The notes beneath the pieces were generated by a model. It had not been told where the DNA came from. It saw only the letters and a list, made by a program, of their open reading frames with translations, and ran no database searches. The position numbers and the translations under genes are program-made. From Candidatus Electronema sp. JM (GTDB lineage Bacteria; Desulfobacterota; Desulfobulbia; Desulfobulbales; Desulfobulbaceae), in assembly GCF_048287415.1 (NCBI RefSeq), contig NZ_JBLWEN010000001.1:88790-152789 (forward strand): a stretch of DNA of 64,000 nt. Direction: 5' to 3'. Below are positions 5,125-26,352 of this stretch, piece after piece (position 1 is the first letter of the stretch; each line of letters begins with the position of its first letter).

Positions 5125-5128
5125 CGAT

Positions 5129-9206: not shown

Positions 9207-11447
9207 ATGCTGACCCCTGAGCAGCGCAGAAAAAAGCAGCGGCTGATCCGCTGGGTCATAGCCTTCTGCCTGCTGCTGATTCCCTGTCTGATCTGGATGC
9301 AGCGGCAGCTCCTGCAAGGCCAGCTCAACCTGCCGGTATCCAGCACGGTGCTGATCTTCGCCCTGATCAACATCAACGGCCTGCTGCTGCTGCTGCTGCT
9401 TTACCTGATACTCCGCAATCTGGTTGAGCTGCTGTTTGAATGCCGGAACCGAATTATCGGGGCGAGGCTGCGGGCCAAATTGGTGCTTGCCTTTGTCTCG
9501 CTTTCGATTATCCCGACAGCGGCCTTGTTTTTAGTCGCATTAGGATCAGTGTCCACCTCAATGGACTACTGGTTCAACAGCAATGTCGAGGACTCGCTGG
9601 AATCTTCTCTCAAGCTGGCTCAAGGCATATTTCAGGAAACCGAAAACCGGGCCGCCAATATGGGCAGGCAGATCAGTCTGCTGCTGGAAAACATTGATAT
9701 TCGTCTGGAGGACAGCGACGGTCTCCAGCAGCTCTTCAGCAACACCCTTGCTCTTGCCCCTTCCGGCGCGCCAGATGCCTTGGTGCTGATTGATCATCAA
9801 CTGCGGCTGCGGGCCTCTGCCAAAGGGGAGCGGTTGGCTGCAATCGCCCTGCCGGACATCCCCAGCGAGGCACTGCGCCGGGCAGAAAGCAGCCGCAGCC
9901 CGGAGATCGTCACCCGGCAGGTCGGCATCGGCGAGCTGGTGCAGGCTGCTGCGCCGATGCAGTTCAAAGACGGCAGCCGCGCCTTTCTGATCACCAGCCT
10001 GCTCATTCCGTCAGAGCAGTTAGCCCTGATGCAGTCGGTTTCGCAAGGCATCACTGGCTATAAGCAGCTTGTTCTGTTCAAGGCGCCGATCAAGCTGAGT
10101 TTAATCCTCATGCTGCTGATCATCACCCTGCTGATTCTCTTCGGGGCGATTTGGTTCGGTTTTTACATCGCCCGCTCAATGACCAGCTCCATCAACAAGC
10201 TGGCGATCGCCACCCAGCGCATTGCCGAAGGGGATTTGAATTTCACCATCGAGAAGGACTCGGACGACGAGCTGGGCCTGCTGGTGGATTCCTTCAACTC
10301 AATGACCGCCGACCTTTTGGCCAGCAACAGCCAGCTAGCTGAAGCGCATCAGGCCTTGCAGGAGTCAAATCAGATCTCGGAGCAGCGCCGCCGCTATCTG
10401 GAGGCCATCCTCCGCAACGTGGCCGCCGGGGTTATCGCCATCAACGAGCAGCATCAGGTCACGATCATCAATCCCTTTGCCGAAAAGCTGCTGCGCATAG
10501 ACCCCGCGCTCTTCCTGCAACGCGATTTCCATGAGGTGCTGCCCCTCTCGCACGCGGCGATGCTGGAGCAGTTTTTCAGCGACCTGCGCGAGTCCGGCCA
10601 GCGGAGCATTGAGCGGCATCTCAGCCTGACGGTGCGCAAGGGCGAGACCTACTCGCTCTTAGTCAACATCACCCGCCTGCTCGATGACCGCGAGCGGCCC
10701 ATCGGCTACGTCATTGTTTTTGATAATTTGACCAAGCTGGAGAAGGCCCAACGCATCGCAGCCTGGCAGGAAGTGGCCCGCCGCATCGCCCATGAGATCA
10801 AAAACCCGCTCACGCCGATCCAGCTTTCGGCGCAGCGGCTGCGCAAGCGGTATCTGGAAAGCATCAGCAAGGACCGGGAGATATTCGATCAGTGCACAGC
10901 GACCATCATTCAGCAGGTGGACGAGATCAAGCGGCTGGTGACTGAATTCTCCGACTTCGCCCGGATGCCGCGCATCAAGAAGCAGCAGGCGGATTTAACC
11001 GCGCTGGCCGCTGACACGCTGGTGCTCTACCGCGAGGGCTGCAAGCACATTGATTTTCAATTGGAGCGCGGCCAGGTTCCGCCCTTCTCCTTTGATCCGG
11101 TGCAGATCCGCCGCGTGCTGATCAATCTTTTAGACAACGCGGTCAGCGTCCTCAGCAGCGGCGGCGCGGTCAGCCTCGCCATCAGCCTTGACCAGAATGA
11201 GGAAACGGTCAGCGTCTCAGTCAGCGACAACGGCCCCGGCATCCCGGAGGAGGTCAAGCGGCGGCTCTTTGAACCCTACTTCTCCACCCGCAAATCCGGC
11301 ACCGGTCTTGGCTTGGCCATTGCCAACACCATCGTTTCCGAACACAACGGCTCCATCCGCGTGCAGGACAATGCCCCGACCGGCACGACGGTCATCGTGG
11401 AGCTGCCCTTTCTCCGCGAGGAGCCAGCATGTCCGCAAGCATCCTGA
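9207..11447 (+). CDS. NtrY-like sensor histidine kinase (multi-TM, HAMP, PAS, HisKA, HATPase)
   Basis: Four N-terminal TM helices, HAMP (IAEGDLNFTIEKDSDDELGLLVDSFNSM), PAS, H-box IAHEIKNPLTPI, and G-boxes DNGPGIP and GTGLGLAI. Confidence 0.85.
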   Translation: MLTPEQRRKKQRLIRWVIAFCLLLIPCLIWMQRQLLQGQLNLPVSSTVLIFALININGLLLLLLLYLILRNLVELLFECRNRIIGARLRAKLVLAFVSLSIIPTAALFLVALGSVSTSMDYWFNSNVEDSLESSLKLAQGIFQETENRAANMGRQISLLLENIDIRLEDSDGLQQLFSNTLALAPSGAPDALVLIDHQLRLRASAKGERLAAIALPDIPSEALRRAESSRSPEIVTRQVGIGELVQAAAPMQFKDGSRAFLITSLLIPSEQLALMQSVSQGITGYKQLVLFKAPIKLSLILMLLIITLLILFGAIWFGFYIARSMTSSINKLAIATQRIAEGDLNFTIEKDSDDELGLLVDSFNSMTADLLASNSQLAEAHQALQESNQISEQRRRYLEAILRNVAAGVIAINEQHQVTIINPFAEKLLRIDPALFLQRDFHEVLPLSHAAMLEQFFSDLRESGQRSIERHLSLTVRKGETYSLLVNITRLLDDRERPIGYVIVFDNLTKLEKAQRIAAWQEVARRIAHEIKNPLTPIQLSAQRLRKRYLESISKDREIFDQCTATIIQQVDEIKRLVTEFSDFARMPRIKKQQADLTALAADTLVLYREGCKHIDFQLERGQVPPFSFDPVQIRRVLINLLDNAVSVLSSGGAVSLAISLDQNEETVSVSVSDNGPGIPEEVKRRLFEPYFSTRKSGTGLGLAIANTIVSEHNGSIRVQDNAPTGTTVIVELPFLREEPACPQAS

Positions 11448-12796
11448 TCATTGACGACGAAAGCGCCATCCGCGAGAGCCTCTCCGGCATTCTGGAGGAC
11501 GAGGGCTTTCAGCCGCTGACCGCCGCCTCCGCCGAAGAGGGGCTGAACCTGCTGGCGCGGCAGGACGTTGATTTGATTCTTTTAGACATCTGGCTGCCGG
11601 GCATGGACGGCATCGAAGCCCTCAAGCGCATCCGGCAGAACTGGAGCGAGGCCCCGGTGATCATGATTTCCGGTCATGGCAGCGTTGAGACCGCAGTGCA
11701 GACCACCCGCATCGGCGCCTTCGATTTCATAGAAAAGCCGCTCTCTTATGACAAGGTGGTGCTGGCGGTCAACCAGGGCCTGCGGCTGGCCCGCTTGGAG
11801 CGCGAGAACCGCCTTCTGCGCGAGGCCGCGCCTGCCGGAGCGGCGATTATCGGCGAATCCCAAGCCATCCGCCAGCTGCGGCGGCAGATCGAGCGGGTCG
11901 CGCCCACAGACGCTTCCGTGCTGATTCTCGGCGGCCACGGCACCGGCAAGGAGCTGGCCGCGCAGGCTGTGCACCGCCAGTCGTCCCGCGCCGCCAGCCC
12001 GATGGTCGCGGTCAACTGCGCCGCCATCCCAGAGGAGCTGATTGAGTCCGAACTTTTCGGCTATGAGAAAGGGGCCTTCACCGGCGCGGACAAGGCCAAG
12101 CAGGGCAAATTTGACCAGGCCGACGGCTCAACGCTCTTTCTCGATGAAATCGGCGACATGAGCCTGAAGAGTCAGGCCAAGGTGCTGCGCGTCCTGCAAG
12201 AGAAGAACTTCGAGCGGGTCGGCGGCGGCAGGATGATTGAGGTGGATGTGCGCATCCTGGCAGCCACCAACAAGGATTTGGAGCAGGAAATCAAAGCTGG
12301 AAATTTCCGCGCCGACCTTTTCTACCGCCTGAACGTCATCCCGCTGCGCATCCCGGATTTGAAGGAGCGGCTGGAGGACATCCCGCTCCTTGCGGCGGAA
12401 TTCCTCCGCCAGCTCCGCAGCCGGGGCTTGGGCGAGAAGCGTTTAGACGACGGTGCGCTGGCCCTGCTCATGCGCCACAGCTGGCCCGGCAACATCCGCG
12501 AGCTGCGCAACCTGATCGAGCGGTTGGTGATCATGACTCCCGGCCAGCTTATCACCGCCGAGGATGTGAGCTTCTTTCTTCAGCCCAGCGCGGCACGGCC
12601 CATTCAGTCTGTCAGCCTGCCGGATTGGTGCCGCTTCGGCTTCAAGGAGGCGCGGCGGCAATTTGAGCACGATTATCTCTGCAAAAAGCTGGAAGAATGC
12701 GGCGGCAACATTTCCAAGACGGCGGAGACAATCGGCCTGGAGCGCAGCCATCTGCACAAGAAGCTGAAGGCATTGGGCATCAAGGCCGAGGAATAG
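11429..12796 (+). CDS. Sigma-54-dependent response regulator (NtrX/NtrC family: REC + AAA+ + Fis-type HTH)
   Basis: REC (ILIIDDE...DLILLDIWLPGMDG), Walker A GGHGTGKE, GAFTGA loop, ESELFGYEKGAFTGA, and a C-terminal HTH GGNISKTAETIGLERSHLHKKLK. It overlaps the kinase stop by 19 nt. Confidence 0.9.
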   Translation: MSASILIIDDESAIRESLSGILEDEGFQPLTAASAEEGLNLLARQDVDLILLDIWLPGMDGIEALKRIRQNWSEAPVIMISGHGSVETAVQTTRIGAFDFIEKPLSYDKVVLAVNQGLRLARLERENRLLREAAPAGAAIIGESQAIRQLRRQIERVAPTDASVLILGGHGTGKELAAQAVHRQSSRAASPMVAVNCAAIPEELIESELFGYEKGAFTGADKAKQGKFDQADGSTLFLDEIGDMSLKSQAKVLRVLQEKNFERVGGGRMIEVDVRILAATNKDLEQEIKAGNFRADLFYRLNVIPLRIPDLKERLEDIPLLAAEFLRQLRSRGLGEKRLDDGALALLMRHSWPGNIRELRNLIERLVIMTPGQLITAEDVSFFLQPSAARPIQSVSLPDWCRFGFKEARRQFEHDYLCKKLEECGGNISKTAETIGLERSHLHKKLKALGIKAEE

Positions 12797-14289: not shown

Positions 14290-14700
14290 CTGCATCCATT
14301 CTTGATGCTGTCAGCTTTCATGCAGCGTATATCAAGCGGCTCCAGCAGACGGTTGAGGATCAATGACCATATTGACAGTCATCCCGGCATGAAGCAGGAC
14401 ATGGAGCTGCTGGTCAACATTCCGGCGGTCGGGCCGCAGACCGGCAGCAAGATGCCCGCAGTCATGAAAGCCCGCCATTTTCAATCTGCCGAGCAGCTCG
14501 CCGCTTATTTGGGCCGGGCACCTCTCGAAGACAGGTCCGGCCAAACTTCGGGCTGTGCCGCACATGGCCGCTGTTGTGGCCGTTCGGCGTAATCCGAACA
14601 TCAAAGCCCCCTATGCACAACTGCTTTCGCGGCAAATCCACAATGTCGGCTTTGGGGGCTGCAATGCGCAAGCTCGCTCATTCTGCTTCGGCGTGGTGCT
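14290..14700 (+). pseudogene. IS110-family transposase remnant (C-terminal third only, at least two frameshifts)
   Basis: Three frames together read ...HPGMKQDMELLVNIPAVGPQTG...FQSAEQLAAYLGRAP...SGQTSG / AAVVAVRRNPNIKAPYAQLLSR / RGKSTMSALGAAMRKLAH. This is the conserved IS110/IS116/IS902 C-terminal region. No N-terminal DEDD domain is present. Confidence 0.7.
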
Positions 14701-14706
14701 CACTTG

Positions 14707-17247
14707 CTATTCTGCTCCAGCTCTATCACTCTCCCCGCTGTCCTCCGCGCCGTCTTCCTCTGCCTCCACATCGCCGGATGAGCGCGCCAAGATGGACATG
14801 TCCACTACCTTTTCGCCCTCGCCGAGATTGATCATCCGCACGCCCTGCGTGTTGCGGCCAATCACCCGGAAGGAGTCCATGGGCAGGCGGATCACCTTGG
14901 CCGAGTTGGCGATCAGCATGACCTGATCGCTGTCCTCCACTTGCAGTGCGCCGACCACCAAGCCATTGCGCTCGCTGGTCTTGATGGTGGAGACACCCTT
15001 GCCGCCACGGCTTTGCAGGCGGTACTCAGAGATGGCTGTGCGCTTGCCGTAACCATTCTCAGTCACAGTGAGGATGGACGTGGACTCGCAGTCGCTCTTC
15101 TTCAGCACCACCGCGCCGACCACCTCGTCCTCGTCCACCAGCGTGATGCCCTTGACCCCGCTGGCGACGCGGCCCATCTCGCGCACGTCATCCTCATGGA
15201 AGTGAATGGACTGGCCGTGCCGCGTGACAAGGAAGACCTCGTCCTCGCCGGAAGTGACAGCCGCGCAGAGTATCTCGTCGTCCTCGCGGATGGTCAGGCC
15301 GATCTTGCCCTTGCGCATGGGCCGCTTGTACTCAGCGATGCTGGTCTTCTTGACGATGCCTTTCTTGGTCACCGTGAGGATGGAGAGGGCCTCGTCAGCA
15401 TGGGCAAGATCAGCTATGGGCAGGATGGCCGCCACCTTCTCGCCCTCGGCCAGCTCCAGCAGATTGACTATTGCCCGGCCTTTCGCTGTACGCCCGCCTT
15501 CAGGCAGCTCATAGACCTTGCGCCAGAAGACGCGGCCCCGGTTGGTGAAGAAGAGGAAGGTGTCGAGCGTCGAGGCGGCATACAGGCCGGAGACAAAGTC
15601 GTCCTTGACATCGGCCATGCCCGCCACGCCCTTGCCGCCGCGCCGCTGCGCCCGGTAGAGACTGAGCGCGGCGCGTTTGATGTAGCCATTGTGCGAGACG
15701 GTGACCACCATCTCCTCGTCGGCGATCATGTCTTCCGGCAGTATCTCATCCGCCGCCTCGATGATCTCCGTGCGCCGCGCGTCGCCGTACTGCTCGCGGA
15801 TCTCGCGGAACTCGTCGCGGATGATCTGCATGACCAGCGCGTCGTCCGCCAGTACCTTCTTCAGCCAGGCGATGCGCTCAAGGATCTCCGCATACTCCTG
15901 CATGATCTTGTCGCGCTCCAAGCCGGTGAGGCGTTGCAGGCGCATGTCCAAGATCACTTGCGCTTGCAGCTCGGACAGAGCGAAGCGCTCCATCAGCCCG
16001 GCCTTGGCCTCCGGCGGGCCAGCAGCGGCGCGGATCATGTCCACCGCCGCGTCGAGATTGTCGAGAGCGATCTTCAGCCCTTCTAAGAGGTGGGCGCGCT
16101 CCTCAGCTTTGCCTAAGTCAAAGGCGGTGCGGCGGTACACCACCGTGCGCCGGTGCTCCAAGAAGTGAACGAGCAGCTGCTTGAGGTTAAGTATCTCTGG
16201 CCTGCCGTTGACGATGCAGAGCATGATCACGCCGAAGCTCTTTTGCAGCGGCGTGAGGCTGTAGAGCTGGTTGATGGTCACGTCCGGGTTCTCGTCCCGC
16301 TTCAGATCCATGACGATGCGCAGGCCGTCGCGGTCAGACTCGTCGCGCACCTCGGCAATGCCCGGCAGCCGCTTCTCCTTCATCAGCAGAGCGATGCGCT
16401 GCACAAGATCGGCCTTGTTCTGCTGATAGGGCACCTCAGTAACAACGATGGCCTCGCCTTCGCCCTTTTTGCGCCGCTCCACGTGCAGCCTGCCGCGCAT
16501 GACGATCCTGCCGCGTCCCGTCTCGTAGGCCTCGCGGATGCCCGCTCTGCCGCAGATGAAGCCGCCGGTGGGGAAGTCCGGGCCGCTGATCTGCTCCAGC
16601 AGCTCCAGCACGCTGATGCCGGGCCGGTCAATCAGCGCGAGCAGGCCGTCCATCAGCTCGCTCAGATTGTGCGGCGGAATCTTGGTGGCCATGCCCACCG
16701 CGATGCCTTCCGAGCCGTTGAGAAGCAGGTTCGGGATGCGCGAGGGCAGGACGGTCGGCTCCTGCTGCGAGCCGTCATAGTTGGGAATGAAATCCACCGT
16801 GTCCTTCTCGATGTCCGCCACCAGCTCCTGATCCAGCCTGCTCATGCGGGCCTCGGTGTAGCGCATGGCCGCCGCCGAGTCGCCGTCCATGGAGCCGAAG
16901 TTGCCCTGGCCGTCCACGAGCGGATAGCGCAGCGAGAAGTCCTGGGCCATGCGCACGATGGTGTCGTACACCGCCGTGTCGCCATGCGGGTGGTATTTGC
17001 CGATCACGTCGCCGACGATGCGGGCCGACTTGACGTAGGGCCGGTTGTGGAATGTGCCCAGCTCGCGCATGGCGTAGAGGCAGCGCCGGTGCACCGGCTT
17101 GAGGCCGTCGCGCACATCAGGCAGGGCGCGGCCGACAATCACGGACATGGCGTAGTCCAGATAGGACTTGCGCAGCTCCTTCTCTATGTCAACGGTCTGA
17201 ATCGCTTCGGGCAGGACTTCGTCCTGCGCTGCTTCTACTGTGGTCAT
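14707..17247 (-). CDS. gyrA: DNA gyrase subunit A
   Basis: An 846-aa full-length match to the GyrA pattern: catalytic region [10 protein letters not shown], the QRDR-type segment [11 protein letters not shown], and a C-terminal beta-pinwheel with an acidic tail. Confidence 0.97.
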
Positions 17248-17280: not shown

Positions 17281-17688
17281 TCAGCGCAGGCCGTTCTCAT
17301 TGAAGAATGCGCTGTACTTCTTGTCTGTGCCCTTGATGTGGCCTTGCAGCCAGTCGCGCAGGAAGTACAGGGTGTCTATGGAGACCGTCAGGCGGCCTCC
17401 CTCAAAGTCGATCTGGAACTCAGTCACCTTCTTGACAAAGGCGGCGTGCTCCTTCACATGCGCCGTTGTGTCCGGGTATTTGAACTGGGCGAAGTACTTC
17501 TCCTCCGCCTTGAAATGGGTGTCGGTGTAGCTGATCAGGCCGCTGAGGATCCTGCCCAGCACATCCTTCCCCTTGCCGCTCTTCATTGCGTCGTGCAGCT
17601 CGTTGATCATCGCCACCAGCTTGCGGTGCTGGCTGTCGATCTCCGCCACATTGACGCTCAAGCTCTCGTCCCACGCTATCAGGCTCAT
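17281..17688 (-). CDS. Bacteriohemerythrin
   Basis: ATG at 17688 with GGGAGGG RBS. WDESLSVNVAEIDSQHRKLV...HF..EE..F......H..EH..F......WL..HI..TD shows the hemerythrin His/Glu/Asp iron-ligand pattern. Confidence 0.85.
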   Translation of the reverse strand: MSLIAWDESLSVNVAEIDSQHRKLVAMINELHDAMKSGKGKDVLGRILSGLISYTDTHFKAEEKYFAQFKYPDTTAHVKEHAAFVKKVTEFQIDFEGGRLTVSIDTLYFLRDWLQGHIKGTDKKYSAFFNENGLR

Positions 17689-17713
17689 TTTGGCACCCTC
17701 CCTGTTTGCTTGG

Positions 17714-18586
17714 TTATTGTGGTGTTGCATTCTTACTGAAATATTTTTTCATGAGAATGAACCGTTCAACAGCGCAATCATTTCTAAGTTTCATGTATTT
17801 GCCATCAAATGGAGTTGGTGCATGCAGGCAGGCGAATTTTTCATCATATACAGTAAGCAGAACACCTCTCGCCCGTGTGAAGAAATCAGCATGTTCTAAT
17901 TTTTTAAGCTTGTTGTCCCAGCCGACTTTTTTTATCCTGTCTGTTCTGCAGATAAAAAAATTTGGCACTTTATCGTAAACAGGAAGGCCTGAAATTTTGC
18001 TGCCGATTGGAGCCACAGGCTGAGAATCAGTCGGATACAAACCTATCTTGCTGTAAGCATGAATTGTAAAAAAAGGAAGGTCAATCACCTTTCCTCCTAA
18101 TATATCAATTCTTGAATCAGAATCTATCAAATAAAGACTATCCTCTATCTTTGTTTTTCTGAAAAAGACAAAATCGTCATCTAAAAAAAGCGTGTACTTT
18201 GTTGCAACGCAACCTAACGCCGCATTTCGTCCTGCGGATATGCCTGAATTATATGGCATGGTTATCTTCTCAACGCTCTTGACTTCTTCTGGATGCAGAC
18301 TGTCATCAACTACAATAATTTTAATAGATGGATAATATTTCCTTATACTCCGCAGAAGACGGACAAGTGCTTTGTAACGTTCAAATGTTTTTATAACAAT
18401 CGTTAGTTCATTCAGCAGCTCGCTGTTGCTTGGAGCGGCAGGTTTTAGTGAATCAAGAAAATTTTGCAGTGCCAATTCAAGATAAATAACAAAATCGTAA
18501 AAAAATTTAGCAACAAATTGAACCCTGCTGCCCATCAGAGCATATTTTATCTTTTTCAGATAAAAAAAAGCGATATTTTTATTCAT
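17714..18586 (-). CDS. Family-2-like glycosyltransferase, strongly AT-rich
   Basis: LTIVIKTFERY...IKIIVVDDS and FLDDDFVF resemble GT-A fold DxD motifs. A hand count of 18101-18200 gives 27% GC. Confidence 0.6.
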   Translation of the reverse strand: MNKNIAFFYLKKIKYALMGSRVQFVAKFFYDFVIYLELALQNFLDSLKPAAPSNSELLNELTIVIKTFERYKALVRLLRSIRKYYPSIKIIVVDDSLHPEEVKSVEKITMPYNSGISAGRNAALGCVATKYTLFLDDDFVFFRKTKIEDSLYLIDSDSRIDILGGKVIDLPFFTIHAYSKIGLYPTDSQPVAPIGSKISGLPVYDKVPNFFICRTDRIKKVGWDNKLKKLEHADFFTRARGVLLTVYDEKFACLHAPTPFDGKYMKLRNDCAVERFILMKKYFSKNATPQ

Positions 18587-19502
18587 GCGACTTGCTTTCC
18601 TTCATTAAATTTTGTTGTTTCTGCTCCTGTAAGCTGGCCAGTTCCTCGCCGGACAGGCCAGTGCTGGCAGCAATAACCTCCAGCGCGACACCGTGCGCCA
18701 GCAGGCTGCGGGCAACAGCGAGCTTCTCCTCACGTTTTCCCTGTTCCATGCCTTGTGCCATGCCCTTCGCCAAGCCATCCTTCTCCGCCTTGGCCAGCGC
18801 TCCCTGCTGGAGCATGATGAAGTCCCGGCGTTTGAACTGCATCTCCAGCTCCTCCTCGTTCAGGGCGGCAGTGTTGGCCAAATCAAAGGCATCAAGCAGC
18901 GGCGGCTCAGTGAAGGTCTTGGGGATGAAGTCAAGGCTGCCAGCGTGCTTGATGAAGTATATCCATTTATCGGTGACGGAATCCAGCTCAGTCTCGCTTT
19001 TGCTGAATTTTGGCAGCTCGATGAAGATCAGCTCAATGTCGCCATTGTACTGAACAAGCTGCTCTTTTTCTCTGAGATCCCAATACGAAATAGCCTTGCC
19101 GAACTCAGGGAACATCGCAAAGTCGGTGATGGTCAGGGCTATGACCGGCTCCAAGCTGGCGTAGTGCTGCGAGCGTTTGAGCTGAGATGAGTAAAGTTTG
19201 GCGGCGTTGTACAACACCCGCTTCTCAAAGCCCTCGACATTCAGCACCTGCATCTCGACGATCACCCTGCGCTGATTGGACAGCACCGCCTTCACGTCCA
19301 CATAGCTGTCTTTCATGCCTTTTAATAGCGGCACCTGATACGGATCAACTATGGTCAGGTCGGTAATTTGCGCATCTTCAAAGTCAATCACGGCATTGAG
19401 GAAGTCAATCAGGATGCCTTTTGACTGCTCGCTGCCGAAGTTTGGCAATCTCTTCTTCAGATAATCCCGTGCTGGCAGCGATGACCGCCGATGCAACGCC
19501 AT
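18579..19502 (-). CDS. Rpn-family (YhgA-like) PD-(D/E)XK recombination-promoting nuclease / putative transposase, paralog 2
   Basis: LIDFLNAV...DLTIVDPY...DSYVDVKA....VIVEMQV shows the nuclease core pattern, with a helical C-terminal tail (LLAHGVALEVIAASTGLSGEEL). Start is uncertain: ATG at 19502 or TTG at 19523. Either start overlaps the upstream paralog by about 100 nt. Confidence 0.65.
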   Translation of the reverse strand: MALHRRSSLPARDYLKKRLPNFGSEQSKGILIDFLNAVIDFEDAQITDLTIVDPYQVPLLKGMKDSYVDVKAVLSNQRRVIVEMQVLNVEGFEKRVLYNAAKLYSSQLKRSQHYASLEPVIALTITDFAMFPEFGKAISYWDLREKEQLVQYNGDIELIFIELPKFSKSETELDSVTDKWIYFIKHAGSLDFIPKTFTEPPLLDAFDLANTAALNEEELEMQFKRRDFIMLQQGALAKAEKDGLAKGMAQGMEQGKREEKLAVARSLLAHGVALEVIAASTGLSGEELASLQEQKQQNLMKESKSHE

Positions 19503-20286
19503 GCGCCAGCAGATTGCGGGCAATAGCGATTTTTTCTTCGTATTTCCCTTCGGTGCGTCCCTCTTCCTTTGAAGACCAGAGCATGGACTGCTGATACGAC
19601 ATATTTAGCATATATTCATCATAGGCTTTGCGCTGCGGCTCATCTAAATTCATCATCCGCAGCCGTGCCGAGGCTTCTTGGATATGCTTGGCCCTGAAAT
19701 CAGGGCGCACTTCGCTGTGCTTGAGCATGTAAATCCATTCATCCAATCCAGACTGCACTTTATCGGGGAAATCCTCAACGCGAATAAGGTAATGCTCAGG
19801 AAATATTTTGCGCACATCGCTGATGCCGAACAGCTCCTGCTGTCTGTTGCTCAGGCTGAGTATATCTTTGCTGTGAACGCCGACAAAATTGGTGGAGCCG
19901 TAATAGAGATAATCTGTGCCGATGCCAAGACTGAAATAGGTGATGCTGACCGAGATGATTTTTTTGATTTCCCGGTACGGCTGGCCTTTTTCTAAATATT
20001 CGGTCATCAGTTTGGCGACACCGTAGGCGATGCGGTGGAAGAAATCGTATTCCGATTTCACCTGCACTTCAATCAGCAGCAACTCGCCTTTGCTGTTTTC
20101 AACCAGCAAATCAACGCGGTTGAATTTATCGAGGCTGTCTTCCTGATTGCTTTCGCTCTCCAAGAGATTGACGACGGTGACATCTTCATCAAGCACGGCA
20201 GTGAGGAAGCCTTCCAGAACGGAAAAATTGGCTTTGTCGCGCAGCAGCTTTTTGATAGCCCAGTCAAAGCGGATGAGTTTTTCCAT
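19405..20286 (-). CDS. Rpn-family (YhgA-like) PD-(D/E)XK nuclease, paralog 1
   Basis: DWAIKKLLRDKANFSVLEGFLTAVL...FNRVDLLVENSKGELLLIEVQV shows the D...E.Q core. The C-terminal tail LLAHGVASAVIAASTGLSEEEI is paralogous to that of the downstream gene. Confidence 0.7.
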   Translation of the reverse strand: MEKLIRFDWAIKKLLRDKANFSVLEGFLTAVLDEDVTVVNLLESESNQEDSLDKFNRVDLLVENSKGELLLIEVQVKSEYDFFHRIAYGVAKLMTEYLEKGQPYREIKKIISVSITYFSLGIGTDYLYYGSTNFVGVHSKDILSLSNRQQELFGISDVRKIFPEHYLIRVEDFPDKVQSGLDEWIYMLKHSEVRPDFRAKHIQEASARLRMMNLDEPQRKAYDEYMLNMSYQQSMLWSSKEEGRTEGKYEEKIAIARNLLAHGVASAVIAASTGLSEEEIAKLRQRAVKRHPD

Positions 20287-20376
20287 GTTACGGTCTATTC
20301 AAAATCAATTACAAGGAAAATTTTTATGGTTATTCCGAGCACAACGAGGAATCTTTGCTGCTTCTGAAACATCCAT

Positions 20377-21864
20377 CTATCGGCTGACACCAGCTTTGCG
20401 CTGGGCTATATCATCCAGTGCTTGCTGAAGCAACTTGGCCTTAGGGTGTTTCATTTTCTGATACAGGTGCAGGCTCCTCTTCCAAGCTGCTTCCGCCTGA
20501 TCAAAATTACCGTATGTCACATACACGCTGCCCAAATTTCCGTATGTGCTCGCCGTTGCTTCTTTTAGCCCCAAGGCTTCGCTGATCTCAAGGCTCTTTC
20601 TGTACATCTCCTCCGCCTTGCCCAATTCGCCGTGTTTGAAGTGTATACTACCCAAATTAGCATACTGTATTGCTGATGTTTCCTTCAACCCCAAGGCTTC
20701 GCTGATCTCAATGCACATCTTGGACATTTTTTTCGCCTTGCCCATCTCGCCGCGTCTTGCATACATATTGCCCAGATTGCCATAATCTTGCGCCATGCAT
20801 TCCCTGCGCCCCAAGGTTTCGTGGATCGCAAGTGCTTTCATGTACATCTCCTCTGCCTCGTCCATCTCGCCGCGCGTAAAGTGTGTATTACCCAGATTGG
20901 CGTACTGGTTCGCTGTTGCTTCCGTCAGTTCCAAGGCTTCGCTGATCTCAAGGCTCTTTTTGTACATTTCCTCTGCCTTGCCCTGCTCGCCACGTATCCT
21001 ATACACATTACCCAGATTCCCGTAATCTTTCGCCATGCCTTCCTTGCGCCCCAAGGTTTCGTGGATCGCAAGTGCTTTTATGTACATCTCCTCCGCCTTA
21101 TATAGCTCACCGCGTGTGCGATACACATTGCCCAGATTACAAATAGCGATTCCCTGTAGCTCGTTGTCCTGATTTGCCTCGCCCAAGGCCAGCACCTTGT
21201 AGTATGCCTCTTCGGCCTGCGCAAATTCCCCTGTGCGGAGGAGTAAGGTGGCAAGCATATTCCAGCCCTCCGCATTGTCCGGGTCAAGCTCCACAGCCTT
21301 CTGATATGCAGTTAGGGCTGCCTTGGTATCGCTCATAAAGGCCAATGCGCCCAAATGCCGGGCGGCGGCGGCTGCTTCCTTGTTCGCCTTCCTTCCTTCT
21401 GCCTCCTTGGTCTTCAGCACTTCAGCAAAGATGGCTTGAGCCAGTTCGGTACGCCCCTGCTCCAAAGCCTTCAAGGCTTCGTTGATGCTCTTTGGTGGCG
21501 CATCCGTCTTGGACAGAGCAGCAATTGCTTCCGTTAATGCCTTGATCTGCTCGTCTTTGGCCTCCAACTGCCCTTGCAATAGCTTTACGGCCAGCTTTCC
21601 CGCATCAACTGCCGGTGCCTTGTCCATGTATTTGTTCCAAACCGCAAGGAAAAAGCCAAGCACCGTCACACTCATCCCAAGCTGGAAGCCATAGGCGAGC
21701 ATCAACTTGATGATCATGCCTGACTCCTCTGGTGAAGGCGGTTGCAGCAGCTTAGAGTCAATGAGCTTAGTGTGGATGCCAAAGACAAGCATCAGGACAA
21801 AGCCCACTAGCACCAGCGGGACAGCCAGATACTTGGCAATCTTCTCAAAGTCTGTGAAGTTCAT
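20377..21864 (-). CDS. Membrane-anchored TPR-repeat protein
   Basis: Two N-terminal TM helices, a coiled-coil stretch, then about 8 TPR units of the YGNLGNVYRxRGExxKAEEMYxKxLxI type. The units are repetitive at the DNA level. Confidence 0.8.
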   Translation of the reverse strand: MNFTDFEKIAKYLAVPLVLVGFVLMLVFGIHTKLIDSKLLQPPSPEESGMIIKLMLAYGFQLGMSVTVLGFFLAVWNKYMDKAPAVDAGKLAVKLLQGQLEAKDEQIKALTEAIAALSKTDAPPKSINEALKALEQGRTELAQAIFAEVLKTKEAEGRKANKEAAAAARHLGALAFMSDTKAALTAYQKAVELDPDNAEGWNMLATLLLRTGEFAQAEEAYYKVLALGEANQDNELQGIAICNLGNVYRTRGELYKAEEMYIKALAIHETLGRKEGMAKDYGNLGNVYRIRGEQGKAEEMYKKSLEISEALELTEATANQYANLGNTHFTRGEMDEAEEMYMKALAIHETLGRRECMAQDYGNLGNMYARRGEMGKAKKMSKMCIEISEALGLKETSAIQYANLGSIHFKHGELGKAEEMYRKSLEISEALGLKEATASTYGNLGSVYVTYGNFDQAEAAWKRSLHLYQKMKHPKAKLLQQALDDIAQRKAGVSR

Positions 21865-22040
21865 GTGTGCTCGTGGTGTATTGCAAGAAACGATGCAGGC
21901 AGGCTGCGGGGACAGTCGCCGCAGCGCCTTTACACATTCGATTCTAAAACTTCCTCATCGCCAACCTACGCTTGGCTGCGCAACTGCTTCGGATAAGGCT
22001 GTATCAACGTTGGCAGGCCAGCTCCGATCTTTTCAAGGCA

Positions 22041-22290
22041 GCCTCCTTTTCTTCCGCGCTCAAGCCCTCTTTTAAAAAGGACAGGCCCTTTTCTTAAAAG
22101 GGCGCATCCTTTCAACGAAAGAGTATCTCCTTTTTTAAATAGGGCTTCCGCTTTTAACAAAAGTGCGCGTTCTTTTCTTAAAAAGAACGCCTCTCTTAAC
22201 GAAAGAGACCTCCCTCTTTAAAAGAGGACACGTCCTATCGAAAAATTAGGGCTTCATTTTCTTAAAAGGACAGCCTCTTTCGTCCAACGG
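22041..22290. repeat. Phased array of ~10 short A/T-cored palindromes with ~21-bp period
   Basis: Units include CCCTTTTCTTAAAAGGG (22086-22102), GCGTTCTTTT-CTTA-AAAAGAACGC (22167-22190, perfect 10-bp arms) and CCTCTTTAAAAGAGG (22213-22227). Unit centres fall at about 22073, 22094, 22115, 22136, 22158, 22178, 22200, 22220, 22242 and 22262. Confidence 0.85.
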
Positions 22291-22336
22291 GGCCGTGCAT
22301 TTGTTCCGCAGCCCCGGTTGTTCGCCGAAGTTCCCT

Positions 22337-25300
22337 TCACACATCCAGCTCAGAAACCTCCAGCGCGTGGTTCTGGATGAACTCGCGCCGTGGCTCGACC
22401 TTGTCGCCCATCAAGGTGACGAACAAATCATCCGCAGCCTCGGCATCCTCAATCCTGACGCGCAGCAGGGTGCGGTTGGCCGGGTTCATGGTCGTCTCCC
22501 AAAGCTGCTCCGGGTTCATCTCGCCCAAACCTTTATACCGCTGCAAATGACTGCCCCGGAAGGTCTCCTCGCGGACAACACGAATCAGCTCGCGCCAATT
22601 TTTAGCCGGAATTTCCTTCTCCTGACCAGAGGCCGCATTCTTGCAGAGGGTGAAACTGCTGCCGATGTGCTCCCTGATTTCAGGATAGAGATCAAGACCG
22701 AGCCGGTATTCGGGAATCAGCGGAATATGCGGCCCGATGACCGCACGGGTGTGGGCCAAACCTTGAAAGGCCGCCTCCGCCTCAAAGCAACTGGGCCGGG
22801 ACGCGCAAACGCGAATGCCGCTGGTGACGGCATTGATGCTGGCGAGCTTATCCAGCAGCCCGTGCAGGAACGCCTCCTCCTTGAATTGATCCGCAGAATG
22901 GACATCGTTTTCAAGCAGGAAGAGGGTGAGCTGCTCCTGAATGTTCATCCGTTCCAAGAAGGTGCTGATGCGCTCAAACAGGGTGAGCTTCTTCAGCAAA
23001 CTGACCAGTTCCTGCCCGGCCAGCACGCTGCCGTTCTCCAAGCGGACTTGCACAAACTGGGCCGCCTGATCGTAAAGGTGGTTGTTGAGCGCGTCCTCAT
23101 CCAGGAAATATTGCTCCTTCTTGCCCCGGCCCAAGCGATAAAGCGGCGGCTGGCCGATATAAACATAGCCTTGCTCGACCAGCGGCAGCATCTGGCGATA
23201 GAAGAAGGTGAGCAGCAAGGTGCGGATGTGCGCGCCGTCCACGTCCGCGTCGGTCATGATGATGATCTTGTGGTAGCGCAGCTTGCTCGCATCAAACTCC
23301 TCCCGCCCGATGCCGGTGCCCATTGCGGCGATCAATTGCTTGATCTCCTCCGAGTCGAGAATCTTGTCGAAACGTGCCTTCTCCACATTCATGATCTTGC
23401 CGCGCAACGGCAGGATGGCTTGGATGGAGCGGTCGCGGCCTTGCTTGGCACTGTTGTGAACAAACACGCCGCTGGCTAAAGCAAAATTGTGCGTGTTCGG
23501 CACTTCGATGTCGTACACATCAATACGCTCGGTCAGCTTCTCCACTGAGACAACGCGGTGGTTGTAATTGCTCACCGCTTCCAGAGCGCGTTCGGTGTTG
23601 TTATCAAAATACCGCTGGCAGAAGGTGTCAAAGCGCAGCAATGATTTGTCCTTTGTGGCAATGCGGTGCTGGCGGTAGCCTTCAAGATCAACTGCGCCGG
23701 GCCGCAGCTCGTGCCGCTTGAGCACGGCCAAAGTTTTCCGGTAATACGTCTGCTGCAACGCAGCTTGGCGGCGGGCGCGGAACTCTGCTGTCCATTGCTG
23801 CTGAGTTTTCTGACTGCGCCACGCCAGCAGCTCGGCATCGCTCCATTGCTCTTTCGCCTTTCGTGACTGCTCCGCACGGGCTTCCGGGTGCTCTTCAAAA
23901 TAGGAACGCACCCGTTCAGCTTGGGCCAAGCGGTTTTCCTCATCCTGCCAGTAGATTTTCTGCGCCTCATTCAACAAAGCGGCATTTTGCTGGCGATATT
24001 CTGCGTTGCTGCGGTAGAACTCCCGCCATTTGTCGGCCATGAAGGCTTTGTACGCCGCATCGTCCCATTGCACTTGAGCGCGTTCAGAGAGCTGCTGCCG
24101 CAACTGCATCATGCGTTGGCTCATCTTGGTGCGGAATTCAGGACTCTGCCGGACAGCCCGACTCTTTTCGATCACATCGGGCCGACGCAGGGTTCGGTCA
24201 GCGTGCTGCCGATGCAGGCGCAAATGCTCTTCCGCCGGAAGCCGCCGGATGTTGGAGGGATTGTTGTTGCGCTTATTGAAATCAAGGTGATGCCGATGTT
24301 CGCCATCTTCAGCCTGATAACCACCTGCCTTGCAGTTATATTTATCGGCAAGGACATGTGTGAATTTCCAGCGGCTGGCATTTGGTTCCCAAACCATTTC
24401 ATAGCCGTCAATGGTGATGCCCGGTTCATTCATATCCGAGAGCTTGCGATACAGCGGCATCAAAGAAGTGCCGACAGTCAGCCGTTCTGCCGGGCAATAG
24501 CTGCCATCGCGAAGCAGGAAGCGGTGATCCGGGGTGCAGACAATCTGCTCGCCATTGTCCAGCGTCACCTGCACAACTTCCTGCTGCCGCTTAGTCAGGC
24601 GCGGATGCAAAATCCGTTCGAGGCCAATCTTGCCGTCTGCTTGAATGGTGTAGCAGAAATGCTCTTTGCCCTGCTCCTGCTCGGCGATCAGCTCCAAAAA
24701 GCTGAGGGCGCGGCCATCGGCCAAAGCCACTTTGGTCTCGCCAGAAAAGCAGCCGCCCGCTGAATCGCCCTCCACGAGAAACAGCTCGCGCTCTGCCGGA
24801 TTCTTCGACTGGCATTCAGCCAGCTTGCCTGCCATCAGCAGAGAAATGCCGTCCTTCTTGCGTGACAAATCACGCGCCTTCCGCGCCGCTTCTCTGGCCC
24901 GCGCCGCCTCGACCGCCTTGCTGAGTATCTGCCGCGCCACCTGCGGGTTGCGCTCCAAGTAATCGCCAAGCTGCTCGGTGCAGATGGAAGCGACGATGCC
25001 CTTCACCTCGGAGTTGCCCAGCTTGGTCTTGGTCTGACCCTCGAACTGCGGATTCGGCACCCGCACTGAAATGATTGCAGTCAGGCCCTCGCGCACATCA
25101 TCGCCCTCCATTTTCTCCTTCATGTGCTTGGGCACAATGTCATCAGTGGCGTATTTGTTGATGCACTTGGTCAGCGCGGCGCGGAAACCCGCCACATGCG
25201 AGCCGCCTTCGCGGGTGTTGATGTTGTTGACAAAGGAAGCCAGCCGCTCAGTGTAGCTGTCCACATATTGCAGACAGACCTCGACCTGCACCTGCTCCTG

Positions 25301-26047
25301 CTCGCCTTCCAGAAAGATCGGCTGCGGATGAATCGGGGTGCGGTTGCGGTTCAGGTGCTCGACATATTCAACCACGCCGCCTTCATAATGAAACACATCC
25401 TCAGCCCCGCTTTGCTCATCCTTCAGGGTGATGTGAACGCCCCGATTGAGAAAAGCCAGCTCGCGCAGCCGGTTGAGGACGATCTCGTATTTGAACACAA
25501 CCGTCTGGGTGAATATCTCCGGGTCTGGCTTGAAAGTAATCGTGGTGCCGGTGTGCTCGCTGGTGCCAACCACCTCCAGCTCGCTGGTCTTTGCGCCGTA
25601 AGAGAAGGTCTGCCGGTAGAGCTTGCCGTTGCGCCGCACCTCAGCGGTGACATGGGTGGAGAGCGCATTGACCACCGACACGCCCACGCCGTGCAATCCG
25701 CCGGAAACTTTATAGGACGAATGATCGAACTTGCCGCCCGCGTGCAAGGTGGTCAGCACCAGCTCAAGAGCGGTCATGTTTTCCGTCGGATGCTTGTCCA
25801 CCGGAATGCCGCGTCCGTTGTCTTCGACCGAGCAGGAACCGTCCTCCAGCAGGATCACCTTAATCTGGTTGCAGTATCCGGCCAGAGCCTCGTCAATCGA
25901 GTTGTCCACCACCTCGTAAATCAGATGATGCAGCCCTTCTTCCGCCGTGTTGCCGATATACATGGACGGACGCTTGCGCACCGCCTCAAGCCCGTCAAGA
26001 ACCTTGATCTGATCCGCCCCGTAGGACGTGTTCTGCTGTTCGCTCAC
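22337..26047 (-). CDS. gyrB: DNA gyrase subunit B, interrupted by an intein
   Basis: GTG at 26047 (AGAAGG 7 nt upstream) gives the canonical N-terminus [31 protein letters not shown]. The GHKL ATPase, transducer and Toprim (EGDSAGG / SAKQGRDR) regions are present. The extein totals about 803 aa once the 433-aa insert is removed. Confidence 0.95.
23453..24751 (-). mobile_element. GyrB intein (433 aa) with HNH-type endonuclease insert
   Basis: The insert lies between EGDSAGG and SAKQGRD. Block [11 protein letters not shown] (Cys codon 24751-24749), block B TPDH, block [15 protein letters not shown], block G VFVHN|S (Asn codon ends at 23453). Internal HNH motif [29 protein letters not shown]. 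Confidence 0.9.
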
Positions 26048-26352
26048 TTGCTTGCCTTCTCTGAAGAATTTATACGGAAAACGGCATGGTTGCGATGCGG
26101 CGCGCCGCATCCTGCCGGAAGCGGCTCATCATACCATAGTTCCGGCAAAAACGGGGAAAAATCTGCGGTTTGCAAGGAATTTTATCCAGATGGCCGCGCC
26201 GCCGCCAAGGAGCATTCCAGCGCGGAGCACTGCTGGCAAAATATGCAATAACGAAGAAAACAGGAACAGCCTGAATACAGTGGCATTTTTTCGCTACGAC
26301 TGGTATGATGGGCGGAGCTTGCCATTTTTATTTTTCATTGAGGAGAAGCGTT

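What the first reader, a model, noticed from the sequence alone, without database searches (positions are those of the whole stretch)
17281..22336. About 5 kb of compositionally mosaic accessory DNA wedged between gyrB and gyrA
gyrB (22337-26047) and gyrA (14707-17247) are co-oriented but separated by several genes. These are a hemerythrin, a 27%-GC glycosyltransferase, two Rpn-type PD-(D/E)XK nuclease paralogs, a TPR membrane protein and the palindrome array. In many bacterial lineages gyrB and gyrA are adjacent and cotranscribed. An IS110 remnant also abuts the gyrA stop (14290-14700), and no dnaA or dnaN lies upstream of gyrB. The locus therefore looks like a rearrangement or insertion hotspot inside an otherwise essential operon.
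Basis: partly seen in the sequence, partly recalled or inferred. Interest (0 to 1): 0.5.

Follow-up and report, generated by a model that had tools for sequence, protein, structure and literature searches.

The report
Variable gene patch splitting gyrB from gyrA
In this freshwater cable bacterium the two DNA gyrase genes, which sit side by side in its non-cable relatives, are separated by a 5 kb patch of genes of different ages that differs from one related genome to the next; this is ordinary genome plasticity in a heavily rearranged lineage, not one recent foreign insertion.

Summary
gyrB (22337-26110) and gyrA (14707-17247) lie on the same strand, 5.1 kb apart. Between them are a bacteriohemerythrin, a GT2 glycosyltransferase, two Rpn-family nucleases, a membrane TPR protein and a palindrome array. 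An IS110 remnant abuts the gyrA stop. One correction: the GT2 gene is 36.7% GC (GC3 0.32), not 27%.

The window comes from Candidatus Electronema sp. JM. Fourteen Desulfobulbaceae and Desulfocapsa outgroup loci keep dnaN-gyrB-gyrA-gpsA with gyrB and gyrA 60-240 bp apart, so adjacency is ancestral.

The spacer is layered:
- Hemerythrin-gyrA is present in every Electronema sequence examined and has native composition.
- The Rpn genes are shared by a subclade and show deletion scars and one chimera.
- GT2 is patchily present. It has co-diverged with hemerythrin (dS up to 0.9) under purifying selection while keeping GC3 at 0.31.
- The TPR position holds a different gene in each of four genomes.

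The flanks outside the gyrB..gyrA block are also scrambled between Electronema species, so the turnover is not special to this spacer. I found no integrase, tRNA or attC site.

Verdict: a real plasticity zone of a known kind, of modest interest. The mechanism is inferred to be illegitimate and homologous recombination, possibly helped by IS elements or the Rpn nucleases.

The parts
14290..14700 (+). IS110-family transposase remnant: the C-terminal Transposase_20 part only, frameshifted, ending 6 nt from the gyrA stop
   Evidence: Pfam PF02371 at 1.9e-10 on the ORF 14302-14592. The continuation in another frame (14555 onward) was read and the sequence. No DEDD N-terminal domain was found.
14707..17247 (-). 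gyrA
   Evidence: Pfam DNA_topoisoIV at 1e-161 plus six DNA_gyraseA_C repeats. It is 86-92% identical to Electronema gyrA.
17281..17688 (-). Bacteriohemerythrin, 33 nt upstream of gyrA, with a GGGAGG Shine-Dalgarno site. The ORF is open back to 17730, but homologs start at 17688.
   Evidence: NF033749 at 162 bits against a cutoff of 84. It lies directly upstream of gyrA in all the Electronema genomes (L001-L006, L009, L011) and in metagenomic contigs L081, L082, L086 and L088. GC3 is 0.84.
17714..18586 (-). AT-rich family-2 glycosyltransferase. The segment absent from the Rpn_a-type relatives is about 17721-18611.
   Evidence: PF00535. GC is 0.367 and GC3 0.32. It is absent in L001-L004 and L009, with the junction at 18612|17720. 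It is present upstream of hemerythrin in L081, L082-84 and L085 at 79-90% amino-acid identity. dN/dS is 0.11-0.21 and dS tracks hemerythrin.
18579..19523 (-). Rpn_a, an Rpn-family PD-(D/E)XK nuclease. The start is uncertain (ATG at 19502 is an alternative). The ancestral stop TAA has become AAA, so the ORF runs 13 codons into the GT2 segment.
   Evidence: PF12784 at 1e-44 and TIGR01784 at 162 bits. Orthologs lie directly upstream of hemerythrin in L001-L004, L113 and L151. Scars of it remain in L005 and L086.
19405..20286 (-). Rpn_b, the second Rpn-family nuclease. It is 31% identical to Rpn_a, but the two share 77% nucleotide identity over the last ~85 nt.
   Evidence: PF12784 at 1e-22 and TIGR01784 at 111 bits. 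Orthologs are in L003, L004 and L151. L009 carries an Rpn_b/Rpn_a chimera.
20287..21945 (-). Variable slot. Here it holds the membrane TPR gene (20377-21864), which contains 240-nt internal tandem repeats.
   Evidence: DNA homology to L003, L004 and L009 stops at about 21946 and resumes at the Rpn_b ATG at 20286. The slot holds a 213-aa protein in L003, a 491-aa SEC-C-motif protein in L004 and a 116-aa membrane protein in L009. The TPR protein belongs to a multi-copy cable-bacteria family, with best hits at 53-66% identity.
21946..22336 (-). Conserved non-coding stretch after the gyrB stop: an array of about 10 short A/T-cored hairpins (about 22036-22300), plus a ~90-nt tail that the first hairpin unit overlaps slightly
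   Evidence: Conserved at 81% mean column identity in four genomes. The motif is enriched and confined to this array within the window. 83% of cells pair, against 55-66% when the partners are slid, but covariation is weak. Two units match the terminator-like pattern on the - strand. No Rfam family matches.
22337..26110 (-). gyrB, with a 433-aa intein at 23453-24751
   Evidence: Pfam DNA_gyraseB, Toprim, HATPase_c and Intein_splicing. Intein boundaries are GG|CFSGE...VHN|SAKQ. The intein is shorter in L003 and absent in L004 and the outgroups.

Best explanation
The 5 kb between gyrB and gyrA in Ca. Electronema sp. JM is a plasticity zone specific to this lineage, built up in layers. It is not a single island.

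Shown:
- The ancestor of the family had dnaN-gyrB-gyrA-gpsA in a tight row.
- Every Electronema sequence examined has a bacteriohemerythrin gene directly upstream of gyrA.
- Upstream of hemerythrin there is an allelic series between identical flanks: Rpn_a, GT2, both, an Rpn_a scar, or other genes.
- A subclade has gyrB, the hairpin array, one variable gene, Rpn_b, Rpn_a and hemerythrin in that order, and the variable gene differs in each genome.
- One genome deleted the DNA between the two Rpn paralogs by recombination in their shared 3' ends.
- GT2 is an old, selectively maintained gene that stays AT-rich.

Inferred:
- The layers arose by repeated illegitimate recombination at gene boundaries. 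In JM, GT2 is flanked by an imperfect ~12-nt repeat of the CAATAACAACAA sequence that overlaps the Rpn_a stop codon.
- Homologous recombination between paralogs, and between Electronema lineages through the conserved flanks, also contributed.
- This happened in a genome background that is IS-rich and broadly rearranged.
- gyrA is now probably expressed together with hemerythrin rather than from the gyrB promoter. The hairpin array after gyrB may act as a terminator or insulator.
For: - Organism: GT2 is 100% identical to a protein from Ca. Electronema sp. JM, and gyrA relatives are 86-92% identical in Electronema.
- Ancestral adjacency: L008, L010, L012-L021, L023 and L024 have gyrB 60-240 bp upstream of gyrA with conserved dnaN upstream. 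gpsA follows gyrA wherever the contig extends that far.
- Hemerythrin-gyrA: found in L001-L006, L009, L011, L081, L082, L086 and L088. More distant hemerythrins (<=67% identity) are not next to gyrA.
- Variable slot.
- GT2 absence junction and flanking repeat.
- GT2-hemerythrin in other lineages, GC3 0.31 in all of them, and dS(GT2) close to dS(hemerythrin) in two of three comparisons (0.32 vs 0.22 and 0.90 vs 0.93, but 0.92 vs 0.36 for L085, whose hemerythrin is truncated to 87 codons), with dN/dS 0.11-0.21.
- Allelic series between CxxCxxCC and hemerythrin: L001 has Rpn_a, L081 and L082 have GT2, and L086 has a ~35-nt Rpn_a scar.
- L005 keeps about 60 nt of the Rpn_a 3' end.
- The L009 chimera.
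- Flanks outside the block share no ORF families among Electronema.
- Literature: cable-bacterial genomes are IS-rich, with 120 ISs in E. scaldis (PMC10926707). rpn genes are non-autonomous, prone to horizontal transfer and cluster with defence genes (PMC10400941). RpnA promotes RecA-independent recombination (PMC5350276).
Against: - No recombination mechanism is demonstrated. The repeat flanking GT2 is imperfect and short.
- The Rpn_a-GT2 junction is seen only in this genome, so an assembly artefact cannot be excluded. Chimeras are reported for amplified cable-bacteria DNA (PMC10926707).
- GT2 presence is patchy relative to hemerythrin distance. L001 lacks GT2 yet is closer to the window than GT2-bearing L082, which needs either several losses or lateral exchange. 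I cannot tell which.
- The position of gyrB in five Electronema genomes could not be found (one search failed to return them), so the order of events is incomplete.
- Transcription units are not known.
Confidence: 0.72

Rival explanations
1. A single recent horizontally acquired island inserted between gyrB and gyrA in this genome.
For: GC is depressed across 17.6-22.3 kb. GT2 GC3 is 0.32. Mobile-element-like genes (Rpn, an IS110 remnant) are nearby.
Against: - The components have different phylogenetic depths: hemerythrin is genus-wide, Rpn is subclade-wide, GT2 is shared with three other lineages, and the TPR slot is genome-specific.
- GT2 has co-diverged with hemerythrin to dS ~0.9.
- Rpn_a and hemerythrin have native GC3.
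- There is no integrase, no tRNA and no long flanking repeats.
Confidence: 0.03
2. The Rpn nucleases actively drive the turnover: their DNA cleavage next to their own genes promotes RecA-independent insertion and replacement of the neighbouring single-gene cassettes.
For: - Both variable positions directly abut an Rpn gene. The slot ends at the Rpn_b ATG, and GT2 begins at the Rpn_a stop.
- Both proteins are full length and score well above the TIGR01784 cutoff.
- RpnA increases RecA-independent recombination in E. coli (PMC5350276).
Against: - Genomes without any Rpn gene at this site (L006, L011) also have different upstream content.
- The flanks far from the Rpn genes are equally scrambled.
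- Rpn proteins are now viewed mainly as toxin/antiphage nucleases and show no site specificity (PMC10400941).
- No conserved recombination site was found at the boundaries.
Confidence: 0.12
3. The intervening genes are a functional unit selected together with gyrase, for example a hemerythrin-led, oxygen- or redox-responsive gyrA operon. Accessory DNA merely accumulates upstream of that unit.
For: - Hemerythrin-gyrA is the only linkage kept in every Electronema genome while everything around it is shuffled.
- The gap is short (33 nt here), with a conserved Shine-Dalgarno site and no terminator-like site in it.
- Hemerythrin is under purifying selection, with dN/dS 0.06-0.18.
Against: - Linkage can persist simply because breaks between a promoterless essential gene and its upstream neighbour are lethal. 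That explains conservation without any functional coupling.
- Electrothrix (L007) lacks the pair.
- There are no expression data.
- This explains only one of the five genes.
Confidence: 0.2
4. Part of the arrangement, namely the JM-specific Rpn_a-GT2 and array-TPR junctions, is an assembly or amplification chimera.
For: These two junctions are unique to this window among all the sequences retrieved. Chimeric translocations are documented for MDA-amplified cable-bacteria DNA (PMC10926707).
Against: - Each half of each junction is independently confirmed elsewhere: gyrB-array, Rpn_b-Rpn_a and GT2-hemerythrin-gyrA.
- Reading frames are intact and tightly packed across both junctions.
- Rpn_a reads through its mutated stop into the GT2 segment in frame, to a new stop.
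Confidence: 0.05

Closest known systems
Split or unlinked gyrB and gyrA loci, as in E. coli and many other bacteria where the two genes are far apart (established knowledge)
   Same: Two essential gyrase subunit genes that are no longer adjacent and presumably have separate promoters.
   Different: Here the split is caught part-way. The genes are still co-oriented 5 kb apart in some Electronema genomes and more than 7-10 kb apart in others. Sister lineages keep the tight dnaN-gyrB-gyrA-gpsA row.
Regions of genomic plasticity, or integration hotspots, between conserved core genes
   Same: Conserved flanking core genes, different accessory genes at the same position in related genomes, defence-type genes (Rpn) and atypical composition in part of the region.
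   Different: No integrase, tRNA, attachment sites or recognisable mobile element bounds the cargo. Cargo units are single genes with boundaries at start and stop codons. The surrounding 'core' is itself not syntenic between species.
Rpn (YhgA-like) recombination-promoting nucleases / toxin-antitoxin antiphage genes (PMC5350276, PMC10400941)
   Same: Both paralogs pass the NCBIfam Rpn model. Their distribution is patchy and prone to horizontal transfer, they neighbour variable genes, and they have a distinct C-terminal module shared between otherwise divergent paralogs.
   Different: They match Pfam PDDEXK_2 (PF12784), not the E. coli Transposase_31 family. The intragenic RpnS antitoxin, nuclease activity and defence function were not tested here.
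Persistently AT-rich surface-polysaccharide genes, such as the low-GC O-antigen/rfb glycosyltransferases of enterobacteria (established knowledge, recalled and not tested here)
   Same: A glycosyltransferase whose GC3 (0.31) is far below the host's (~0.7-0.85) and stays so across diverged lineages under purifying selection.
   Different: It is a solitary gene embedded between a nuclease gene and hemerythrin-gyrA, not part of a polysaccharide cluster. Its substrate is unknown.
REP/BIME-type clustered palindromes and tandem intrinsic terminators
   Same: A cluster of short imperfect palindromes just after a stop codon. Some units match the hairpin-plus-T pattern.
   Different: It is a single-locus element. 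The motif is not found elsewhere in the window, or in the 85 loci fetched by then (L001-L085) apart from the gyrB 3' sites. Stems are A/T-cored with a variable G/C clamp, and covariation support is weak.

Membership tests
Intact gyrBA operon | gyrB and gyrA adjacent (short intergenic gap) on the same strand | tested here: not met
   Same strand, but 5,089 nt with five ORFs lie between the gyrB stop (22337) and the gyrA start (17247). Outgroups have 60-240 bp.
Intact gyrBA operon | Co-transcription of gyrB and gyrA | not testable with these tools
   All intervening genes are co-oriented. Hairpins after gyrB match the terminator pattern. There are no expression data.
Classical genomic island | Integrase or recombinase gene and insertion next to a tRNA/tmRNA gene | tested here: not met
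   No tRNA in the 64 kb. Pfam finds no integrase among the five ORFs. The only transposase is a truncated IS110 remnant outside the spacer.
Classical genomic island | Flanking direct repeats (att sites) | tested here: inconclusive
   Only an imperfect ~12-nt repeat flanks GT2. No repeats bound the whole spacer.
Classical genomic island | Uniformly atypical composition relative to the host | tested here: not met
   GC3 ranges from 0.32 (GT2) to 0.84 (hemerythrin). Only GT2 is a clear outlier against the window median of 0.71.
Integron-type cassette array | IntI integrase, attI and attC sites at cassette boundaries | tested here: not met
   There is no integrase. The palindromes lie in one block after gyrB, not at cassette ends. 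Boundary alignments show no shared site.
Rpn family nuclease (TIGR01784 / PF12784) | Score above the curated cutoff over the full-length model | tested here: met
   Rpn_a scores 162 bits and Rpn_b 111 bits against a cutoff of 52.1, covering model positions 2-272 of 273. PF12784 gives 1e-44 and 1e-22.
Rpn family nuclease (TIGR01784 / PF12784) | Separately translated C-terminal antitoxin (RpnS) and nuclease or defence activity | not tested
   Only an observation: the C-terminal ~28 codons are 77% identical at the DNA level between the 31%-identical paralogs.
Bacteriohemerythrin (NF033749) | Score above the curated cutoff | tested here: met
   161.6 bits against a cutoff of 84.
IS110 family insertion sequence (intact) | N-terminal DEDD transposase domain plus C-terminal Transposase_20 domain in one ORF | tested here: not met
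   Only Transposase_20 positions 2-61 of 87 match in a 96-aa ORF, followed by a frameshifted continuation. It is a remnant.
REP/BIME dispersed palindromes | Many copies dispersed through the genome | tested here: not met
   The motif is confined to 22088-22268 in the window. Among the 85 loci fetched by then (L001-L085), the only hits in Electronema are at the gyrB 3' ends of L003 and L004. Whole genomes were not searched.

The most novel reading that the evidence does not exclude
In the genus Electronema, gyrA has been captured into a hemerythrin-led operon, so that gyrase subunit A expression, and hence DNA supercoiling, is coupled to an O2/redox-binding protein in filaments that span oxic and sulfidic zones. 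The accessory DNA upstream is tolerated because the hemerythrin-gyrA unit is now autonomous. A second unexcluded oddity is that the GT2 gene keeps GC3 at 0.31 through dS ~0.9 in a GC3 ~0.8 background, which implies selection or a mechanism that maintains AT-richness.
Probability: 0.12. Interest if true: 0.6.

Novelty: new member of a known kind. Interest (0 to 1): 0.3.

Why it matters
- It documents, with an allelic series, how an ancestral replication and topology gene row (dnaN-gyrB-gyrA-gpsA) is taken apart step by step in cable bacteria. These are an uncultured lineage with IS-rich, poorly syntenic genomes.
- It corrects the natural assumption that low-GC DNA means a recent insertion. The AT-rich GT2 is old and under purifying selection.
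- It flags hemerythrin-gyrA as the one linkage that survives all the shuffling. That gives a concrete, testable hypothesis about gyrA regulation in Electronema.
- Beyond that, it is ordinary genome plasticity.

Tried and rejected
- Rfam gathering scan of the whole window: no hits, so the hairpin array and its tail are not a known RNA family.
- The hairpin array as a small repeat-protein gene. ORFs in the same frame exist in the four genomes, but their starts and lengths vary (43-81 aa), one has an early stop, and by eye the substitutions are not biased to third positions. I rejected this as unlikely. No formal test was run.
- Global RNAalifold fold of the array. It gave long-range pairings between repeat units and a positive (unfavourable) covariation term. 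I replaced it with a local-hairpin model, which gave only weak covariation.
- PADLOC scan for defence systems. It returned only generic TPR and SEC-C-tail hits and no recognised system.
- Paralogs of the spacer genes elsewhere in the window, for instance GT2 copied from the low-GC islands: none found. Those islands encode LysM, SPFH and unknown proteins, not a glycosyltransferase cluster.
- Locating gyrB in the Electronema genomes where it is not near gyrA.
- The metagenome scan with hemerythrin returned mostly short contigs. They added the L086, L113 and L151 alleles but no new examples of the variable slot.
- Sigma-70 promoter scan: 8 sites against 5.8 expected, so it is uninformative about a gyrA promoter.
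Full report
**What is in the sequence**

The interval 17281-22336 lies between gyrA (14707-17247, - strand) and gyrB (22337-26110, - strand). All the genes in it are on the - strand:
- a bacteriohemerythrin (ORF 17281-17730; the homolog-supported start is 17688);
- a family-2 glycosyltransferase, GT2 (17714-18586);
- two Rpn-family PD-(D/E)XK nucleases (18579-19523 and 19405-20286; TIGR01784 at 162 and 111 bits against a cutoff of 52);
- a TPR protein with two N-terminal hydrophobic segments (20377-21864).

Next comes about 390 nt of non-coding DNA. It holds roughly ten short hairpins with a CTTTT-loop-AAAAG core.

An IS110 Transposase_20 remnant (14302-14592, frameshifted onward) ends just before the gyrA stop. 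Upstream of gyrB are divergent NifU-like and GGGtGRT genes, not dnaN or dnaA. There are no tRNA genes and no Rfam matches in the window.

**Composition**

Window GC is 57%. The median GC3 of 37 ORFs outside the region is 0.71.

| Gene | GC3 |
|---|---|
| hemerythrin | 0.84 |
| Rpn_a | 0.71 |
| TPR | 0.63 |
| Rpn_b | 0.59 |
| GT2 | 0.32 |

Four further AT-rich genes lie at 39.5-42.9 kb and 48.3-49.0 kb. They encode LysM, SPFH and unknown proteins. AT-rich islets are therefore a general feature of this genome.

**Organism and ancestral state**

GT2 is 100% identical to a protein of Candidatus Electronema sp. JM, a freshwater cable bacterium in the Desulfobulbaceae. A gyrA-anchored scan of one genome per species returned eight Electronema loci (86-92% identity), one Electrothrix locus, and many Desulfobulbaceae and Desulfocapsa loci.

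In the 14 outgroup loci that cover the upstream side, gyrB ends 60-240 bp before gyrA. The wider row dnaN-gyrB-gyrA-gpsA, plus further genes, is strongly conserved.

**A layered spacer**

1. *Hemerythrin.* It lies directly upstream of gyrA in all eight Electronema genomes and in metagenomic contigs L081, L082, L086 and L088. Hemerythrins at 67% identity or less are not next to gyrA, and Electrothrix L007 lacks the pair. This gene has native composition and is old.

2. *Rpn_a.* It sits immediately upstream of hemerythrin in L001-L004, L113 and L151. L005 keeps about 60 nt of its 3' end, and L086 keeps about 35 nt. These are deletion scars.

3. *Rpn_b.* It precedes Rpn_a in L003, L004 and L151. 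L009 has a single Rpn gene made of the Rpn_b body and the Rpn_a 3' end. That fits a deletion by recombination in the ~85-130-nt stretch the two paralogs share, which is 77% identical in the window even though the proteins are only 31% identical.

4. *The variable slot.* In L003, L004 and L009, DNA homology to the window runs from gyrB through the hairpin array and its tail to window position ~21946. It then stops and resumes at the Rpn_b ATG (20286). The gap holds one co-oriented gene that differs in each genome:
   - the 495-aa TPR protein in JM;
   - a 213-aa protein in E. aureum GS;
   - a 491-aa SEC-C-motif protein in PJ;
   - a 116-aa membrane protein in UBA5173.

   The JM TPR protein belongs to a large paralog family found across Electronema and Electrothrix, with best hits at 53-66% identity. 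It is lineage-native, not foreign.

5. *GT2.* It is absent from L001-L004 and L009, where the Rpn_a stop is followed after 21 nt by the hemerythrin ATG. In JM the Rpn_a stop TAA has become AAA. The roughly 890-nt GT2 segment is flanked by an imperfect copy of the CAATAACAACAA sequence.

**GT2 is not recent**

Homologs at 79-90% amino-acid identity sit directly upstream of hemerythrin(-gyrA) in three other uncultured lineages: L081, L082-84 and L085.
- Their GC3 is 0.31 in every case, next to hemerythrin genes with GC3 of 0.66-0.88.
- GT2 dS matches hemerythrin dS for two of the three contig pairs: 0.32 vs 0.22 and 0.90 vs 0.93. For L085, whose hemerythrin is truncated, it does not (0.92 vs 0.36).
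- dN/dS is 0.11-0.21.

GT2 is thus a long-standing, selectively maintained resident that has not drifted toward host composition. Its distribution is patchy relative to hemerythrin distance: L001 lacks it yet is closer to JM than L082 is. That implies either several losses or lateral allelic exchange, and I cannot tell which.

Between the same flanks (a CxxCxxCC-domain gene on one side, hemerythrin on the other) there is an allelic series: Rpn_a in L001, GT2 in L081 and L082, and an Rpn_a scar in L086.

**Is the spacer special?**

Only partly. Clustering all ORFs from the loci shows that the DNA outside the gyrB..gyrA block shares no ORF families between Electronema species on either side. The outgroups are syntenic over about 20 kb. 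In five Electronema genomes gyrB is not within 7-10 kb of gyrA at all.

The only trace of the ancestral neighbourhood in the window is the sigma-54 response regulator (11429-12796). It lies a few kb downstream of gyrA in outgroups. The IS110 remnant sits where gpsA should follow gyrA.

Published work reports 120 ISs in a closed Electrothrix genome. It also warns about chimeras in amplified cable-bacteria DNA (PMC10926707).

So the locus is one visible piece of lineage-wide rearrangement. What stands out is the one linkage that survives everywhere: hemerythrin-gyrA.

**Mechanism**

Shown:
- events of four kinds: replacement, insertion, paralog-mediated deletion, and deletion leaving scars;
- boundaries at or within a few nucleotides of start and stop codons;
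- no integrase, tRNA, attC-like site or long flanking repeat.

Inferred:
- illegitimate recombination at microhomologies, filtered by selection against gene disruption;
- homologous recombination between paralogs and between lineages.

Active involvement of the Rpn nucleases is possible. Both variable positions abut an Rpn gene, and RpnA promotes RecA-independent recombination (PMC5350276). It is not needed, however: Rpn-free genomes vary as much, and Rpn proteins are currently understood as toxic antiphage nucleases with intragenic antitoxins that hitchhike rather than transpose (PMC10400941). A PADLOC scan found no recognised defence system.

**The hairpin array**

It is conserved in the four genomes that keep gyrB here, at 81% mean column identity. 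Its motif is confined to this site in the window, and among the 85 loci fetched by then (L001-L085) it recurs in Electronema only at the gyrB 3' ends. A local-hairpin model pairs 83% of cells, against 55-66% when the partners are slid. Only five pairs show double changes, and the model was derived from the window itself. Two units match the hairpin-plus-T pattern on the coding strand. A terminator or insulator role after gyrB is a reasonable guess and nothing more.

**Verdict**

The operon really has been split and the spacer really does turn over. But the spacer is a layered mix of old native genes, an old atypical gene and one variable gene, in a genome that is rearranged everywhere. It is a new instance of a known kind of feature, of modest interest.

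The most novel reading still open is a functional hemerythrin-gyrA operon that couples oxygen or redox sensing to gyrase expression. Conserved linkage alone supports it, and that linkage has a simpler explanation: a promoterless essential gene cannot be separated from its upstream neighbour.

Noticed in passing
window 23453-24751 (within gyrB 22337-26110, - strand); L003 5369-5436; L004: gyrB carries a 433-aa intein inserted at EGDSAGG|C...HN|SAKQGRDR (Pfam Intein_splicing). It is polymorphic. E. aureum GS (L003) has a version lacking roughly aa 584-849 of the JM protein. PJ (L004) and all outgroups have none. An Electrothrix gyrB fragment (P0241) also carries an intein domain. By eye there is an HNH-like motif ([16 protein letters not shown]...H), but Pfam did not report it.
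   Followed up: partly
window 21946-22336: An array of about ten A/T-cored hairpins plus a conserved ~90-nt tail lies directly after the gyrB stop. It is conserved in four Electronema genomes and matches no Rfam family. Its function is unknown; a terminator or insulator role is a guess.
   Followed up: partly
window 39496-42929 and 48302-48967: Two more AT-rich islets (GC 0.35-0.41, GC3 0.33-0.43) encode a LysM protein, an SPFH/Band 7 protein and two proteins with no Pfam match, set within GC3 ~0.7-0.8 surroundings.
   Followed up: partly
window 18658-18742 vs 19466-19549: The last ~28 codons of Rpn_a and Rpn_b are 77% identical at the DNA level, although the proteins are only 31% identical overall. 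This fits either gene conversion or a shared C-terminal module, comparable to the RpnS antitoxin region of E. coli Rpn proteins.
   Followed up: no
window 20528-21138: The TPR gene contains 120/240-nt tandem repeats (80% identity between 240-nt copies). The protein belongs to a family with several paralogs per genome across Electronema and Electrothrix.
   Followed up: partly
window 11429-12796: The sigma-54-dependent response regulator is orthologous to a gene that lies 2-4 kb downstream of gyrA in non-cable Desulfobulbaceae. It is the only trace of ancestral synteny on that side. gpsA, Ham1 and queH are missing, replaced by the IS110 remnant and pheA.
   Followed up: partly
L009 3026-5761: In MAG UBA5173 the gyrA match is split, with aa 1-133 at 3026-3424 and aa 127-824 at 3668-5761, leaving about 240 extra nt between. 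This could be a small insertion or duplication, or an assembly error.
   Followed up: no
L011 6125-9382; L002 6445-8292: Other Electronema genomes carry unrelated TPR proteins, and in L011 also an HD-CE domain protein, just upstream of the hemerythrin or Rpn_a position. TPR genes therefore recur at this site without being orthologous.
   Followed up: no
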